Shown piece after piece: positions 39,001-45,000 of a stretch of 64,000 nt of DNA; the stretch's first letter is position 1; every line of letters begins with the position of its first letter. The stretch lies in NCBI RefSeq assembly GCF_044324875.1, contig NZ_CP172185.1. One strand, written 5' to 3'. The position numbers are program-made. Source of the stretch: Escherichia coli. GTDB taxonomy: Bacteria > Pseudomonadota > Gammaproteobacteria > Enterobacterales > Enterobacteriaceae.

Positions 39001-42000
39001 ATGAAGCTATCCGCATGTTGACCGAAGGTGAACGGGTAGAGCACATTGATGCCGCGCTGGTGAAATTTGGTTTTCCGGTAGGCCCAATCCAACTTTTGGA
39101 TGAGGTAGGAATCGACACCGGGACTAAAATTATTCCTGTACTGGAAGCCGCTTATGGAGAACGTTTTAGCGCGCCTGCAAATGTTGTTTCTTCAATTTTG
39201 AACGACGATCGCAAAGGCAGAAAAAATGGCCGGGGTTTCTATCTTTATGGTCAGAAAGGGCGTAAAAGCAAAAAACAGGTCGATCCCGCCATTTACCCGC
39301 TGATTGGCACACAAGGGCAGGGGCGACTCTCCGCACCGCAGGTAGCTGAACGGTGTGTGATGTTGATGCTGAATGAAGCAGTACGTTGTCTGGACGAGCA
39401 GGTTATCCGTAGCGTGCGTGACGGAGATATTGGCGCGGTATTTGGCATTGGTTTTCCGCCATTTCTCGGTGGTCCGTTCCGCTACATCGATTCTCTCGGT
39501 GCGGGTGAAGTGGTTGCAATAATGCAACGACTGGCCACGCAGTATGGTTCCCGTTTTACCCCTTGCGAGCGTTTAGTCGAGATGAGCAAGCGTGGGGAAA
39601 GTTTTTGGAAAACAACTGCAACTGACCTGCAATAAGAAGGTCAAAGCTATATGAATCCGCGCTGAATGGCGGAGTATTGCTCAAAATGTAAACGCATATT
39701 GACTATACTTACGCCATTGAGGTAAAAAACAGCGTTTCATTCGGTGAATGGATAAGGCACAATGCCGGCCACCGTTTTCTTTCTCTGGTTTCAGATGAAA
39801 GAAAACGGGCGAATCTGGTTAACAAAAGCGGTGCAATATGCAAGTTTTTATCATGCGTCACGGCGACGCAGCCCTCGATGCCGCCAGTGATTCGGTTCGT
39901 CCTCTGACTACTAACGGTTGTGACGAATCTCGCCTGATGGCGAACTGGCTGAAAGGTCAAAAAGTGGAAATCGAACGCGTTCTGGTGAGCCCGTTCCTGC
40001 GAGCCGAGCAAACACTGGAAGAAGTAGGGGATTGTCTGAACCTGCCTTCCAGTGCAGAAGTTCTGCCGGAGTTAACGCCCTGCGGCGATGTTGGTCTGGT
40101 CAGTGCCTATTTACAGGCGTTGACCAATGAAGGTGTTGCTTCGGTACTGGTGATCTCCCACTTACCCTTAGTCGGGTATCTGGTTGCTGAGTTATGTCCG
40201 GGCGAAACGCCGCCTATGTTTACCACCTCGGCCATTGCCAGCGTAACGCTTGATGAAAGCGGAAACGGCACATTCAACTGGCAGATGAGCCCGTGTAATC
40301 TGAAGATGGCAAAAGCGATTTAATACGCATGCACAAGGCCCGCTGGTGTAATCTATCGGGCCTTTATTTTTTTCTGGCAATGTTGAATTTATGCAATCTT
40401 ATTGTACTAACAATGATCCGCTTGTGATCGAATGGTCTTTATTTTATACGGCATGACGCTTTTATTTGTAAAAATTTACATATTGAAAGAGAATTTACTT
40501 TTATTCATAAATTATTTTTCTGGAAGCATTTTTAGGTAAATAATGACTAAAGTGAAAAATATTATTGGGTCTTGATTTTATATTAATTATAGTGTTTTAA
40601 TATTATATCGTTGCGAAATTAATATCACAAGATAGTCATCGCCATGTGATTGTTTTTGACTTTAATTTATTCACTGGATTTTTGCATTTGCCGTTTTTTT
40701 GAACTTATTCTTCATTATTGAGATGAAAAGTTTCAGTAATTATTATCCCCGCCTATTAATTAAGTTTTTCTAACTTTGAATGTTAGAAAATCTAAATTGC
40801 ATCAGTCATATTAAAATATCAACATGTTCGGCACGCCAAAGAATATTATATCAAGGAACCTGTTTTTTCAGGAGCTGACAATCTGTTCATTGGCTGCTTA
40901 AAAGTCGCTGTAAAAATTGAAGAAGCTCTGTGTCAATATTTCAGTTGGCTTATATTCTAATTATTTATGATTTAAGGACAAATAATGAGTAAGTTTGTAA
41001 AAGCAGCAGTTGCCACGGCAATGCTCATGGGGGCGCTGACTTCAGCATCAGTCGTTGCCGCAGGGAACAACGGTACAGTGAGATTTTACGGCACAATTGA
41101 AGACTCCCCGTGCTCAATTGTTCCTGACGATCATAAACTGGAAGTGGATATGGGCAGCATCGGTACGGGTTCTTTAACCGGCGGCAAAACAACCACACCA
41201 AAAGATTTCCAGATTCGTTTACAGGACTGTAATTTCAATACAGAAACGACAATGGCTACCACATTCACCGGTAATCCGTACTCCACTAACGCAGATAACT
41301 ATTCTCTGTCTAACATGGATAATGGAACTGAAATTCCAAACGTTAGCCTGGTTATCGGTGACCAGCACGGTACAGGTTATGCACTGGGGGCAGAGATTAA
41401 GCAACCTATCGTGAAGGACAGTTCAACGGGAAAAGGCAAGCCTAAACAAACTCTGAACTTTAAAGCATGGTTAGTGGGTGAAACGGATGCTGTAACACCA
41501 ACACCGGCACCGTTTGAAACGCTGACGACGTTCCAGATCACGTATCTCTAATGTATTTCCCCCATAGCTGCAAAGTTATGGGGTTTATAACTACCAAATA
41601 ACTAAATTATAAAAAATCATGGATGGATACGCCGATGCCAGAACATTCTTTTCTCCGTTTACGGGGGCTTTCGTGGTGGATTGCTCTGGCGATTTCCGGG
41701 AGTCCATTTAATGCCCTGGCAGACGATACCATTCAGTTTGATGCCCGATTTCTTGATTTAAAAGGCAATACCAAAATTGATTTGGGCCGTTTTTCGCAAA
41801 AAGGCTATGTAGAACCGGGAAAATATAACTTACGCGTTCATGTAAATAATCAGCCGTTACCTGACGACTACGATATCTACTGGTACGCAACTGAAAACGA
41901 TCCGAATAAATCATATGCCTGCTTATCGCCAGAGCTGGTTGCCCAGTTTGGTCTGAAGGAAGATATTGCGAAGAATTTGCAATGGATCCGCGATGGTCAG

Positions 42001-45000
42001 TGTCTGAATACGGCACTTTTAGCAGGTACAGAAATTAGCGGCGATTTAGGCCAGTCTGCACTCCTTGTTTCTGTACCGCAGGCTTATCTGGAATATACCG
42101 ACAGCGAGTGGGACCCGCCTTCGCGCTGGGATGACGGTATCCCTGGGCTTATTGCCGATTACAGTATCAACGCGCAAACCCGGCATGAAAATGGGGGTGA
42201 TGACACTAACGACATCAGCGGTAATGGTACGGTCGGCGTTAACGTTGGGCCGTGGCGCTTACGAGCTGACTGGCAGAGCGATTATCAGCATACCCGCAGT
42301 AACGATGACGGCGACACTGACGATAGCGGTACGCAAAAAAACTGGGAGTGGAGTCGTTACTACGCCTGGCGCGCCTTGCCGTCATTAAAAGCCAAACTTT
42401 CGCTGGGCGAAGATTATCTCAACTCCGATATTTTTGATGGCTTCAGTTACATTGGCGGCAGCATCAGTACCGATGATCAAATGTTACCGCCAAACCTGCG
42501 CGGCTACGCCCCCGATATTTCAGGTGTTGCACACACTACCGCTAAAGTGACCGTAACCCAAATGGGCCGTGTCATTTACGAAACCCAGGTACCCGCAGGT
42601 CCATTCCGCATCCAGGATATTGGCGACTCCGTCTCTGGCACGCTGCATGTCCGCATTGAAGAACAAAACGGCCAGGTACAGGAATACGACGTCAGCACGG
42701 CGTCCATGCCGTTCCTGACTCGCCCCGGCCAGGTGCGTTACAAAGTGACAATGGGGCGTCCACAAAACTGGGACCATCAGGTTGCAGGTAGCTTCTTCTC
42801 GGGCGGCGAGGCATCCTGGGGGATTGCCAATGGCTGGTCGCTCTACGGCGGTGCGTTAGCCGATGAAAACTACCAGTCGGCGGCGCTGGGCCTCGGTCGT
42901 GACCTGGCGCTGCTAGGCGCGTTAGCGTTTGATGTCACTCACTCTCGTGTTCAACTCGACGATAACAGCGTGTATGGCAACAAAACGCTGGACGGCAACT
43001 CTTATCGCGTCAGCTATGCCAAAGATTTTGATGAACTCAACAGTCGGGTGACGTTTGCTGGATACCGCTTCTCTGAAAAAAACTACATGACCATGAGCGA
43101 GTATCTGGATGCGAACGACGACGACCGGGCGCGCACCGGTAACGACAAAGAGATGTATACGGTCACCTATAACCAGAACTTCACGGATGCGCGCGTTTCG
43201 GTCTATCTCAACTATTCCCACCATACCTACTGGGATCGCCAGGATCAGACCAACTACAACATGATGCTTTCTCATTATTTCAATTTAGGAAGCCTTCGCA
43301 ACCTGAGCGTTTCTCTGACCGGTTATCGCTACGAATACGATAAAAGTGCCGACAAGGGTGTTTATCTGTCCTTAAGTTTGCCGTGGGGCGACAACAGCAC
43401 TATCAGTTACAACGGCAACTATGGCAGCGGTGCCGACAGCAATCAGGTGAGCCTGTATCACCGCATTGATGACGCCAGCCACTACACGTTAAGCGCCGGA
43501 ACCAGCGAAAACCACAGCAGCGTGGATGGCTACTACAGCCACGATGGCACTCTGGCAAAAGTGGATCTCAGTGCTAACTACCATGAAGGGCAATACACCT
43601 CAGCAGGGATCTCTTTACAGGGCGGGGCAACGCTGACCGCTCATGGCGGGGCACTGCATCGTACACAAAATATGGGCGGCACACGTCTGTTAATCGACGC
43701 TGATGGTGTTGCTAATGTGCCGGTTGAAGGTAATGGTTCCGCCGTTTATACCAACATGTTCGGCAAAGCGGTGGTGGCAGATGTGAATGATTACTACCGC
43801 AACCAGGCTTATATCGATTTGAACAAACTGCCGGAAAACGCTGAAGCTACAAAATCAGTGGTTCAGGCAACGCTGACGGAAGGCGCTATTGGCTACCGTA
43901 AATTTGCGGTAATCAGCGGTGAGAAGGCGATGGCAGTGCTGCGCTTGCAGGATGGCAGCCATCCGCCATTTGGGGCGGAAGTGAAAAACGATAATCAACA
44001 ACAAGTTGGGTTGGTTGATGACGAAGGTAATGTTTATCTGGCAGGCGTTAAACCGGGTGAACATATGACCGTTTTCTGGGAGGGGGAATCTCACTGCGAT
44101 ATCAGCCTGCCAGACCCGTTACCGAATGACCTGTTCAATGGCTTGTTGTTGCCATGCCAGCAAAAGGGAGGAAGTTCTCCCGTCATACCGCATGATATTC
44201 AACCCGTCATTCAGGAGCAGACACAACAGGTGACACCAATGGAACCGCCGATGTCTGTTTCATCGAACCAATAACGTGATTAAGGAATGATCCATGACTA
44301 AATATCGCTCTGCCAAAACATTGACAACGGTACTGTCGTTACTGGCAGCAACGGTAAGTTTTTCTACCCAGGCGTCAGTAACGCCCGATCGTACTCGCCT
44401 GATTTTTAATGAAAGCGATAAATCTATCAGTGTGACGCTGCGTAATAACGACCCCAAACTGCCTTATCTGGCGCAAAGCTGGATTGAAGATGAAAAGGGC
44501 GTCAAGATCAGCTCGCCGCTGGCGGTATTGCCGCCTGTACAGCGCATTGAAGCAATGATGAATGGCCAGGTTAAAATTCAGGGCCTGCCGGATATTCATA
44601 AATTACCTGCCGATCGGGAATCGATGTTCTATTTCAACGTGCGCGAAATTCCGCCGAAATCGAACAAATCCAACACGCTACAAATCGCTCTTCAGACGCG
44701 TATCAAACTTTTCTGGAGACCGAAAGCTCTGGAAAAAAACACCACGCAAAACCCGTGGCAGCATAAAGTGACCTTAACCCGCAACGGTCAGGAATTTACC
44801 GTTAATAACCCGACGCCGTATTACGTCATTTTCAGTAATGCCAGCGCACAGAAAAATGGCAATCCGGCAGCCGGTTTCTCGCCAATAGTGATGTCGCCGA
44901 AAACCTCTGCACCGCTGAATGTGAAGATGGGGAGTGTGCCGGTACTGACCTATGTCAACGACTATGGCGCTCGGATGCCGCTCTTTTTCACCTGCAACGG

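What the first reader, a model, noticed from the sequence alone, without database searches (positions are those of the whole stretch)
41623..44274. Intact fimbrial usher in the yfc chaperone-usher operon
The usher is a single 883-aa ORF here. As I recall, it is disrupted (yfcT/yfcU pseudogene) in K-12, so this strain may be able to assemble Yfc fimbriae.
Basis: partly seen in the sequence, partly recalled or inferred. Interest (0 to 1): 0.3.

Follow-up and report, generated by a model that had tools for sequence, protein, structure and literature searches.

The report
Intact Yfc-type fimbrial usher gene
This is an ordinary, intact outer-membrane "usher" gene of the Yfc fimbrial operon of E. 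coli; the broken copy in the laboratory strain K-12 is a private one-base defect, so an intact copy is the normal wild state, and the only notable point is that this strain carries a strongly divergent version of the whole operon.

Summary
Window 41623-44274 (+) is one uninterrupted ORF encoding a complete PapC-like usher; the start conserved across alleles is the ATG at 41635, giving 879 aa. It is the second gene of a seven-gene chaperone-usher operon between sixA and smrB, the yfc position.

The recollection about K-12 is also right. MG1655 yfcU (b4661) is an annotated pseudogene with a single in-frame TAG at codon 579. The window has TAT (Tyr) there.

Intactness is not special. The K-12 TAG context occurs in 363 of 5,426 complete E. 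coli genomes, and those listed are mostly K-12 laboratory derivatives. 2,685 genomes carry TAC in the same context. One dog isolate differs from K-12 yfcU by that single base.

The whole sixA-smrB block is about 73% identical in DNA to K-12 and 72% to CFT073, while the flanks are 92-98% identical. Usher synonymous divergence is saturated and dN/dS is about 0.06. The window-type usher is in 633 genomes; its minor-subunit and adhesin module is in only 240, so modules reassort.

High Yfc polymorphism and alternative clusters at this site are already published. Interest is low.

The parts
40324..40984 (+). AT-rich intergenic region between sixA and the major-subunit gene; presumed promoter and regulatory region of the operon
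   Evidence: GC is 27% in 40500-40999. There is no detectable DNA similarity to the K-12 or CFT073 intergenic regions. Sigma-70-like matches, for example 40718-40746, are no more frequent than in shuffles. Inverted repeats are weak and of the kind expected in AT-rich DNA. Silencing by H-NS is inferred from base composition and from the literature calling yfc 'cryptic' (PMC3559732); it was not tested.
40985..41551 (+). Major fimbrial subunit gene (YfcV/StfA-like, 188 aa)
   Evidence: Pfam Fimbrial PF00419, E 4e-18. The best NCBIfam match is StfA, at 133 bits against an equivalog cutoff of 267. It is 66.7% aa identical to K-12 YfcV and 73.7% to CFT073 YfcV. The published UPEC-marker yfcV PCR primers (PMC6057003) match CFT073 exactly but do not match the window.
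41560..41583 (+). Stem-loop between the subunit and usher genes (CCCCAUAGCU...AGUUAUGGGG followed by UUUAU); probable attenuator or mRNA-stabilising hairpin
   Evidence: MFE is -16.5 kcal/mol with z = -3.67 against shuffles. The stem is conserved in the K-12, O157 and CFT073 alleles although the surrounding DNA has diverged, and CFT073 carries a two-sided compensatory change, CAUAG/CUAUG to CACAG/CUGUG. Its function is inferred by analogy with other fimbrial operons (my knowledge).
41635..44274 (+). Outer-membrane usher gene (the finding): 879 aa from the conserved ATG, or 883 aa from the upstream ATG at 41623
   Evidence: Searches give the ORF and its translation. Pfam finds PapC_N, Usher and PapC_C. 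It aligns end to end with PapC (7lhg_C, residues 1-806 of 809, E 1.4e-221). It passes the NCBIfam subfamily model NF011812 with 1794 bits against a cutoff of 972, covering 1-879 of the 881-position profile. Cysteines lie at 96/123 and 821/841, and there are no private substitutions relative to other alleles. dN/dS is 0.06-0.07. Tyr577 (Tyr581 from the 41623 start), codon TAT at 43363-43365, lies where K-12 has TAG.
44294..45043 (+). Periplasmic chaperone gene (YfcS/StfD-like, 249 aa)
   Evidence: Pfam PapD_N and PapD_C. It matches PapD at E 4e-60, with the residues aligned to PapD Arg8 (in DRTR) and Lys112 (in IKLF), and the C-terminal Cys pair, all conserved (numbering derived from that alignment).
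45059..46568 (+). Three minor fimbrial subunit genes (YfcR-, YfcQ- and YfcP-like: 45059-45550, 45547-46026, 46023-46568), overlapping by 4 bases
   Evidence: Pfam Fimbrial PF00419 for each. They are 61-67% aa identical to the K-12 proteins and 52-57% to the O157 proteins.
46570..47433 (+). Predicted tip adhesin gene (StfH/YfcO family, DUF2544, 287 aa from the annotated ATG)
   Evidence: Pfam DUF2544, E 5e-73. RefSeq names the homologue 'StfH/YfcO family fimbrial adhesin'. The N-terminal ~190 aa are hypervariable and the C-terminal ~100 aa are conserved across seven alleles. Identity is 44-55% aa between most pairs of types compared (highest 68.6%, O157 versus JNE23), even where the ushers are 98-99% identical. 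There is no sequence relative in the PDB, and the AF2 model was too weak for fold assignment.

Best explanation
The ORF is the intact, functional-looking usher of a pi-class (Pap-like) chaperone-usher fimbrial operon at the conserved sixA-smrB (yfc) site of an E. coli chromosome.

Inferred mechanism, by homology with PapC/PapD. Subunits are exported by Sec and captured in the periplasm by the YfcS-like chaperone through donor-strand complementation. The usher's N-terminal domain recruits chaperone-subunit complexes. The plug leaves the 24-stranded barrel and the two C-terminal domains hold the growing fibre. Donor-strand exchange then polymerises the fibre in order: the YfcO-like tip adhesin first, then the three minor subunits, then the YfcV-like rod. 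A conserved hairpin after the major-subunit gene probably raises the ratio of subunit to usher.

An intact usher is the wild-type condition. K-12 alone has lost it through a TAC to TAG change at codon 579. That change removes the last barrel strands and both C-terminal domains.

The operon here is one of several deeply diverged allelic versions of the locus: window, K-12, O157 and CFT073 types. Its adhesin and minor-subunit module reassorts independently of the usher-chaperone module.

What is shown: gene integrity, domain completeness, conserved key residues, purifying selection, and the population distribution of the alleles. What is inferred: the assembly mechanism, the adhesin role of YfcO, and silencing under laboratory conditions.
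For: - ORF and domains.
- Full-length PapC alignment with both Cys pairs.
- Chaperone with the PapD Arg8 and Lys112 equivalents.
- NCBIfam subfamily NF011812 passed.
- K-12 pseudogene with a single TAG.
- A natural isolate identical to K-12 yfcU except TAC for TAG.
- TAG context in 363 genomes against TAC context in 2,685.
- A Yfc-like usher is present in 5,416 of 5,426 genomes, with at least 80% of the query covered in 5,385.
- Divergent block with sharp edges at sixA and smrB.
- Usher dS about 1.8-2.0 against 0.08-0.16 for sixA, with dN/dS 0.06-0.07.
- Allele census: K-12 type 3,095, CFT073 type 1,224, window type 633, O157 type 428.
- Tip module of the window type in only 240 genomes.
- Mosaic examples: JNE23 has a window-like usher with O157-like minor subunits; CFT073 and FDAARGOS_1268 have ushers 99.3% identical but YfcO only 52.5% identical.
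- Conserved hairpin with a compensatory change.
- Literature: Yfc is a core-associated pi-class fimbria, described as 'functional but cryptic' (PMC3559732, PMC5216030).
Against: - No expression or assembly data exist for this allele, and none could be generated here.
- The 660-bp upstream region is 27% GC, and the family is described as cryptic in laboratory culture (PMC3559732). Intact genes therefore need not mean fimbriae are made under ordinary conditions.
- The adhesin role of YfcO rests on its position in the operon, its family name, and its pattern of a variable N-terminal and a conserved C-terminal region. The AF2 model (mean pLDDT 62) gave no significant structural match.
- The promoter scan found nothing above chance.
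- Wurpel et al. scored yfc as intact in all 36 genomes they examined (PMC3559732). That shows a point nonsense mutation can be missed by their criteria, so other silent lesions are conceivable. None was seen in the window.
Confidence: 0.9

Rival explanations
1. The operon is intact but effectively silent. It would be a cryptic, H-NS-repressed gene cluster that is never or almost never expressed, so the intact usher gives this strain no practical phenotypic difference from K-12.
For: The upstream region is very AT-rich, 27% GC, and has no convincing promoter above chance. Published work describes yad, yeh and yfc as 'functional but cryptic surface organelles' (PMC3559732, citing Korea et al. 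2010, which I could not read).
Against: There is strong purifying selection on the usher (dN/dS 0.06-0.07) over a divergence that has saturated synonymous sites. All seven genes are intact in every representative of every allele type examined. The inter-cistronic hairpin is conserved with a compensatory change. These features are not expected for a cluster that is never used.
Confidence: 0.3
2. This is not 'Yfc' at all. It would be a distinct pi-class fimbrial type that replaced the yfc cluster by horizontal transfer at the sixA-smrB site, so comparison with K-12 yfcU is between different systems rather than between an intact and a broken copy of one gene.
For: DNA identity to the K-12 and CFT073 operons is only about 72-73%, against 92-98% in the flanks. 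dS is saturated. RefSeq assigns the gene name yfcU to K-12-type ushers but only a generic product name to the window type. Archer et al. gave the O157/W-type cluster at this site a separate designation (PMC3032704).
Against: All types share the same seven genes in the same order at the same site. The same NCBIfam usher subfamily model is passed over its full length. The start context and hairpin are conserved. The YfcO C-terminal domain is conserved. Wurpel's published scheme, based on usher phylogeny plus locus position, files all of these as Yfc (PMC3559732). No closer donor was found in other species: the best matches in other Escherichia species are about 80% identical. The difference between this rival and the main explanation is largely one of nomenclature.
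Confidence: 0.2
3. The usher is full-length but inactivated by missense changes, or another operon gene is defective, so the strain still cannot assemble the fimbria.
For: Sequence analysis cannot exclude subtle loss-of-function substitutions.
Against: The window usher differs from its closest annotated relative at two residues, and at both the window carries the residue shared by other alleles. Both Cys pairs, all PapC domains and the key chaperone residues are present. The tip module is 100% identical in DNA to that of many other genomes.
Confidence: 0.05

Closest known systems
E. coli K-12 yfcOPQRS(U)V operon; yfcU = b4661 pseudogene (formerly yfcT/yfcU)
   Same: Same chromosomal site between sixA and smrB. 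Same seven genes in the same order. Same NCBIfam usher subfamily. Conserved hairpin after the major-subunit gene and conserved usher start context.
   Different: The K-12 usher carries TAG at codon 579; the window has Tyr there. The proteins are only 55-83% identical: usher 80.7%, chaperone 82.7%, YfcV 66.7%, YfcO 54.9%. The regulatory region is unalignable.
CFT073-type Yfc operon (source of the 'yfcV' UPEC marker gene)
   Same: Same locus and architecture, all genes intact.
   Different: About 72% DNA identity; usher 77.2% and YfcV 73.7% aa identical. The published yfcV PCR primers match CFT073 exactly but do not match the window within 2 mismatches; the reverse primer's best window match has 4 mismatches (primers from PMC6057003). 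This strain would therefore score yfcV-negative in that assay despite having an intact operon.
PapC/PapD (P pilus) usher-chaperone machinery, the structurally solved pi-class prototype
   Same: The usher aligns with PapC over residues 1-806 of 809 (E 1.4e-221), covering the NTD, barrel with plug, CTD1 and CTD2. The chaperone aligns with PapD at E 4e-60 with the key residues conserved. The gene order of major subunit, usher, chaperone, minor subunits and adhesin resembles pap.
   Different: From the alignment I estimate roughly half of the residues are identical (not computed). The Yfc usher has an extra Q/P/S-rich C-terminal tail of about 37 residues. No papI/papB-like regulators are present. 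The adhesin (DUF2544) is unrelated in sequence to PapG.
Salmonella Stf fimbriae (stfACDEFGH)
   Same: The best NCBIfam matches of the major subunit, chaperone and usher are StfA, StfD and the usher subfamily model NF011812/PRK15284, which from memory is the StfC model. The adhesin family is named StfH/YfcO.
   Different: The subunit and chaperone score below the Stf equivalog cutoffs, 133 against 267 and 340 against 447 bits. It is a relative, not an equivalog.

Membership tests
Chaperone-usher fimbrial usher (PapC/FimD family) | N-terminal PapC_N domain, central Usher barrel with plug, and C-terminal PapC_C domain in one polypeptide with a signal peptide | tested here: met
   Pfam PF13954, PF00577 (626.7 bits) and PF13953 are all above their gathering scores. 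The full-length alignment to PapC 7lhg_C has E 1.4e-221. The N-terminal sequence MPEHSFLRLRGLSWWIALAISGSPFNALA looks like a signal peptide (judged by eye, no predictor was run).
Chaperone-usher fimbrial usher (PapC/FimD family) | Conserved disulfide-forming Cys pairs in the NTD and in CTD2 | tested here: met
   The protein has exactly four Cys, at 96/123 and 821/841, aligned with the PapC cysteines.
Chaperone-usher fimbrial usher (PapC/FimD family) | Encoded next to a PapD-like periplasmic chaperone and pilin subunits | tested here: met
   The chaperone has PapD_N and PapD_C with the Arg8 and Lys112 equivalents. There are four PF00419 subunit genes and a DUF2544 adhesin gene.
Chaperone-usher fimbrial usher (PapC/FimD family) | Actually assembles and secretes a fibre | not testable with these tools
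   This needs expression followed by EM or immunodetection.
Yfc fimbriae (Wurpel et al. classification: usher phylogeny plus locus position; pi clade) | Located at the yfc locus between sixA and smrB (yfcN) | tested here: met
   The order is sixA 39838-40323, operon, smrB 47503-48054, colinear with K-12, CFT073 and O157.
Yfc fimbriae (Wurpel et al. classification: usher phylogeny plus locus position; pi clade) | Usher groups with YfcU/StfC-type pi-class ushers | tested here: met
   It passes the NCBIfam subfamily model NF011812 over its full length, 1794 bits against a cutoff of 972. Among solved structures it is much closer to PapC (741 bits) than to FimD (273 bits). It is 77-81% aa identical to the K-12, O157 and CFT073 ushers. 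No formal tree including the ushers of other loci was built.
K-12 yfcU allele (RefSeq gene name yfcU) | Near-identity to K-12 YfcU, such that PGAP assigns the name yfcU | tested here: not met
   It is 76.5% nt and 80.7% aa identical to K-12. RefSeq relatives of the window type carry only the generic product name, whereas K-12-type genes are labelled yfcU.
UPEC marker 'yfcV' (Spurbeck PCR target) | Matches the published yfcV primer pair | tested here: not met
   The primers (PMC6057003) have no match in the window with up to 2 mismatches. They match CFT073 exactly.

The most novel reading that the evidence does not exclude
The sixA-smrB site may be a long-lived hypervariable adhesin locus. Three to four usher-chaperone lineages with saturated synonymous divergence coexist in E. 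coli. An independently reassorting tip module (YfcR, Q, P and O, with the YfcO receptor-binding half under 55% identical between most types compared) generates many combinations. That would imply balancing or diversifying selection for different, still unknown receptor specificities. On this reading the window's combination, found in about 240 of 5,426 genomes, would be an uncharacterised specificity that is invisible to the standard yfcV PCR marker.
Probability: 0.5. Interest if true: 0.35.

Novelty: already known. Interest (0 to 1): 0.15.

Why it matters
As stated, the finding matters little. The K-12 yfcU pseudogene is in the standard annotation, and an intact usher is what nearly every other E. 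coli has.

There are two practical by-products. First, the K-12 defect is a single C-to-G change, TAC to TAG. It is absent from an otherwise identical natural allele, so K-12 is a poor reference for judging Yfc function. Second, 'yfcV-negative' by the widely used UPEC PCR marker does not mean the operon is absent. This strain has a complete operon of a different allelic type that the primers cannot amplify.

The modular diversity of the adhesin end of the operon suggests several receptor specificities that nobody has defined. That is a modest but real lead for work on adhesion and tropism.

Tried and rejected
- YfcO structure. An AlphaFold2 model built from a 7-sequence alignment gave mean pLDDT 61.8, with the C-terminal half below 50. 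A Foldseek search against the PDB returned nothing with E <= 0.001 and TM-scores of about 0.2. No fold assignment was possible, and there is no sequence relative in the PDB.
- Search for a phase-variation switch or pap-like regulatory layout in 40324-40984. Only weak inverted repeats typical of AT-rich DNA were found, and promoter-like sites were at chance frequency. Nothing can be claimed.
- Donor species for the window-type allele. The genome-contig scan found only relatives of about 80% identity in other Escherichia species, Pseudocitrobacter and Citrobacter. It also found 87-100% identical fragments in a 'Collinsella' MAG that look like E. coli contamination. The scan relies on exact peptide words, so absence is weak evidence.
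- Literature. Korea et al. 2010 and Spurbeck et al. 2012 are not held. I therefore could not check what phenotype the K-12 operon gave when it was force-expressed despite its stop codon. A search for yfcU/yfcT returned mostly the unrelated malaria marker yFCU.
- An initial idea, rejected: that the window carries the CFT073/UPEC-marker allele. The primers do not match, and identity to CFT073 is only about 72%.
- An apparent conflict, resolved. BLAST extended the 94% K-12 flank match into the 3' end of yfcO. The sliding-window alignment shows that stretch is only about 65% identical and that the real boundary lies at the smrB stop.

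
Full report
**1. The observation.** The ORF listing reports a single ORF at 41623..44274 on the + strand, 883 aa, starting with ATG. 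Its translation has no internal stop. Pfam finds the three usher domains in the right order and far above threshold: PapC_N at 38-184, Usher at 201-761 (626.7 bits) and PapC_C at 772-828.

There is one small correction. A strain whose locus is 99.5% identical in DNA has its usher annotated from the second in-frame ATG, equivalent to window 41635, giving 879 aa. An alignment of the start region of four deeply diverged alleles shows that this ATG and the GGA-containing stretch before it are the conserved elements, whereas the upstream ATG is absent in K-12.

**2. Context.** The gene is the second of seven co-oriented genes:
- a PF00419 major subunit, 40985-41551;
- the usher;
- a PapD-type chaperone, 44294-45043;
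- three PF00419 minor subunits, 45059-46568;
- a DUF2544 'StfH/YfcO family adhesin', 46570-47433.

Upstream lie fadI, fadJ and sixA; downstream lie smrB, prmB and aroC. This is colinear with the K-12 yfc region. The literature places Yfc in the pi (Pap-like) clade and among the 'core-associated' fimbriae of E. coli (PMC3559732, PMC5216030).

**3.
- In MG1655 the usher is annotated as pseudogene yfcU, b4661.
- Its translation has exactly one internal stop, at codon 579. This leaves ORFs of 578 and 298 aa.
- The codon is TAG. The window has TAT (Tyr) at 43363-43365.
- By alignment with PapC, this position lies in the distal part of the barrel, before CTD1 and CTD2. The truncated K-12 product would therefore lack the domains that hold the growing fibre (role of these domains: established knowledge of PapC and FimD).
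- A dog isolate (51008369SK1) has a yfcU identical to K-12 at 2,645 of 2,646 positions. The only difference is TAC in place of TAG.
- A 55-mer centred on the variant base, designed so that every 28-base megablast seed must include it, finds the TAG version in 363 of 5,426 complete genomes. The 60 listed are mostly recognisable K-12 derivatives such as MG1655, W3110, MC4100, C600, HB101, XL1-Blue and O16:H48, all with K-12-sized genomes.
- The TAC version is found in 2,685 genomes.

An intact usher is the norm: 5,416 of 5,426 genomes have a Yfc-like usher, and 5,385 cover at least 80% of the query.

The window does not carry the K-12 allele.
- DNA identity to K-12 is 97% up to the sixA stop and 94% from smrB onward. 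It is 72.6% across the operon, and the two intergenic regions are unalignable.
- Protein identities to K-12 are: usher 80.7%, chaperone 82.7%, YfcV 66.7%, YfcR 63.6%, YfcQ 61.0%, YfcP 67.2% and YfcO 54.9%. For comparison, the flanking FadJ, SixA and SmrB are 97.5-100% identical.
- The operon is equally far from CFT073, at 72.2% DNA identity.
- The published primers for the UPEC marker gene yfcV (PMC6057003) match CFT073 exactly but not the window.
- Synonymous divergence of the usher is saturated, with dS about 1.8-2.0, against 0.08-0.16 for sixA. dN/dS is 0.06-0.07, which indicates long-standing purifying selection.
- smrB, next to the block, has elevated dS of 0.39-0.70.

**5. Population picture.** The usher census over the 5,426 complete genomes is:

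| Usher type | Identity threshold | Genomes |
|---|---|---|
| K-12 type | >=90% | 3,095 |
| CFT073 type (includes Nissle 1917, S88, ST131) | >=95% | 1,224 |
| Window type (includes E2348/69) | >=90% | 633 |
| O157 type | 80-90% to K-12 | 428 |

Representatives of every type have all seven genes intact at the same site.

The modules reassort:
- JNE23-011 has a window-like usher (95% aa) but O157-like minor subunits.
- CFT073 and FDAARGOS_1268 have ushers 99.3% identical but YfcO only 52.5% identical.
- O157 and GF66.1 have ushers 98.3% identical and YfcO 50% identical.
- The window's own yfcR-yfcO module is found at >=90% in only 240 genomes, many of them 100% identical.

In YfcO the N-terminal ~190 residues are hypervariable and the C-terminal ~100 are conserved. 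That is the pattern expected of a two-domain tip adhesin with a variable receptor-binding domain and a conserved pilin domain (inference).

This diversity is not new in outline. Ren et al. reported that Yfc genes have unusually high nucleotide diversity and phylogenies discordant with MLST (PMC4850163). Archer et al. noted a different pi-type cluster at the sixA-yfcN site in strains W and O157 (PMC3032704).

**6. Is the machinery complete?**
- The usher aligns with PapC from residue 1 to 806 of 809, E 1.4e-221.
- It has exactly four cysteines, at the positions of the PapC NTD and CTD2 pairs.
- It passes the NCBIfam usher subfamily model NF011812 over its whole length.
- It has no private amino-acid substitution. 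At the two positions where it differs from its nearest relative, it carries the residue found in other alleles.
- The chaperone keeps the residues aligned with PapD Arg8 and Lys112, and the C-terminal Cys pair.
- A stem-loop immediately after the major-subunit gene (41560-41583; -16.5 kcal/mol, z = -3.7) is conserved in all four allele types and shows a two-sided compensatory change in CFT073. By analogy with other fimbrial operons it probably sets the subunit-to-usher ratio (inference).

The strain therefore has the coding capacity to assemble the fimbria.

Whether it does so depends on expression. The 660-bp upstream region is 27% GC and the family is described as cryptic in the laboratory (PMC3559732). 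I could not test this, and the promoter and inverted-repeat scans were uninformative.

**7. Dead ends.**
- The AF2 model of YfcO was weak and found no structural relative.
- The species-wide scan found no donor closer than about 80% identity.
- The key experimental papers on K-12 and on the UPEC marker were not available.

**8. Verdict.** The intact usher is the wild-type state, and the K-12 pseudogene is a known, lineage-private nonsense mutation.

The more informative fact is that this window carries a distinct, fully intact allelic version of a hypervariable, modular fimbrial locus. It is one that the standard yfcV marker PCR would miss. Interest is low (0.15). The novelty category is 'already known'.

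Noticed in passing
window 5817-13730 (+): A single 2,637-aa ORF colinear with the CFT073 'phase-variable autotransporter adhesin UpaE'. Upstream lie ORFs colinear with ipuB (2907-3476), ipuA (4225-4854) and an HTH regulator (5172-5792). In CFT073 RefSeq the UpaE gene is flagged as frameshifted, whereas here it is one open frame.
   Followed up: partly
window 14764-30078, next to tRNA-Arg(CCU) at 30080-30154 (-): A segment of about 15.3 kb absent from CFT073 and inserted beside the tRNA-Arg gene. It encodes a tyrosine integrase (28639-29943), a second integrase (22053-23093), a Toprim/primase-like 897-aa protein (23060-25753), a P2-family major capsid protein (15618-17030) and an IS21-type istA/istB pair (19117-20763 and 18345-19343). 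It looks like a P4-like satellite or prophage remnant interrupted by an IS.
   Followed up: partly
window 32259-33992, ORF 32390-33637 (-): A 1.7-kb stretch between mlaA and fadL that CFT073 lacks. It holds a 415-aa ORF with no Pfam or NCBIfam match. K-12 has yfdF downstream of fadL, so this may be a divergent yfdF-like gene.
   Followed up: partly
window 47503-48054 (smrB) and 33992-40323 (fadL-sixA): The core genes flanking the fimbrial block are unusually diverged for within-species comparisons. smrB has dS of 0.39-0.70, and the fadL-sixA stretch is only 92.5% identical to CFT073. This suggests that linked diversity or recombination tracts extend out of the hypervariable locus.
   Followed up: partly
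L013, L016, L017 (contigs of a MAG labelled Collinsella sp. Map_57_008): Short contigs of a MAG labelled Collinsella (which I recall is an actinobacterial genus) encode 87-100% identical pieces of this E. coli usher. This is almost certainly E. coli contamination of the bin.
   Followed up: no
K-12 yfcU codon 579 (L001 about 9264-9266): The K-12 lesion is an amber codon. Many cloning strains carry the supE44 amber suppressor (my knowledge), so some of the 363 TAG-carrying laboratory strains may read through it at low level. This was not examined.
   Followed up: no
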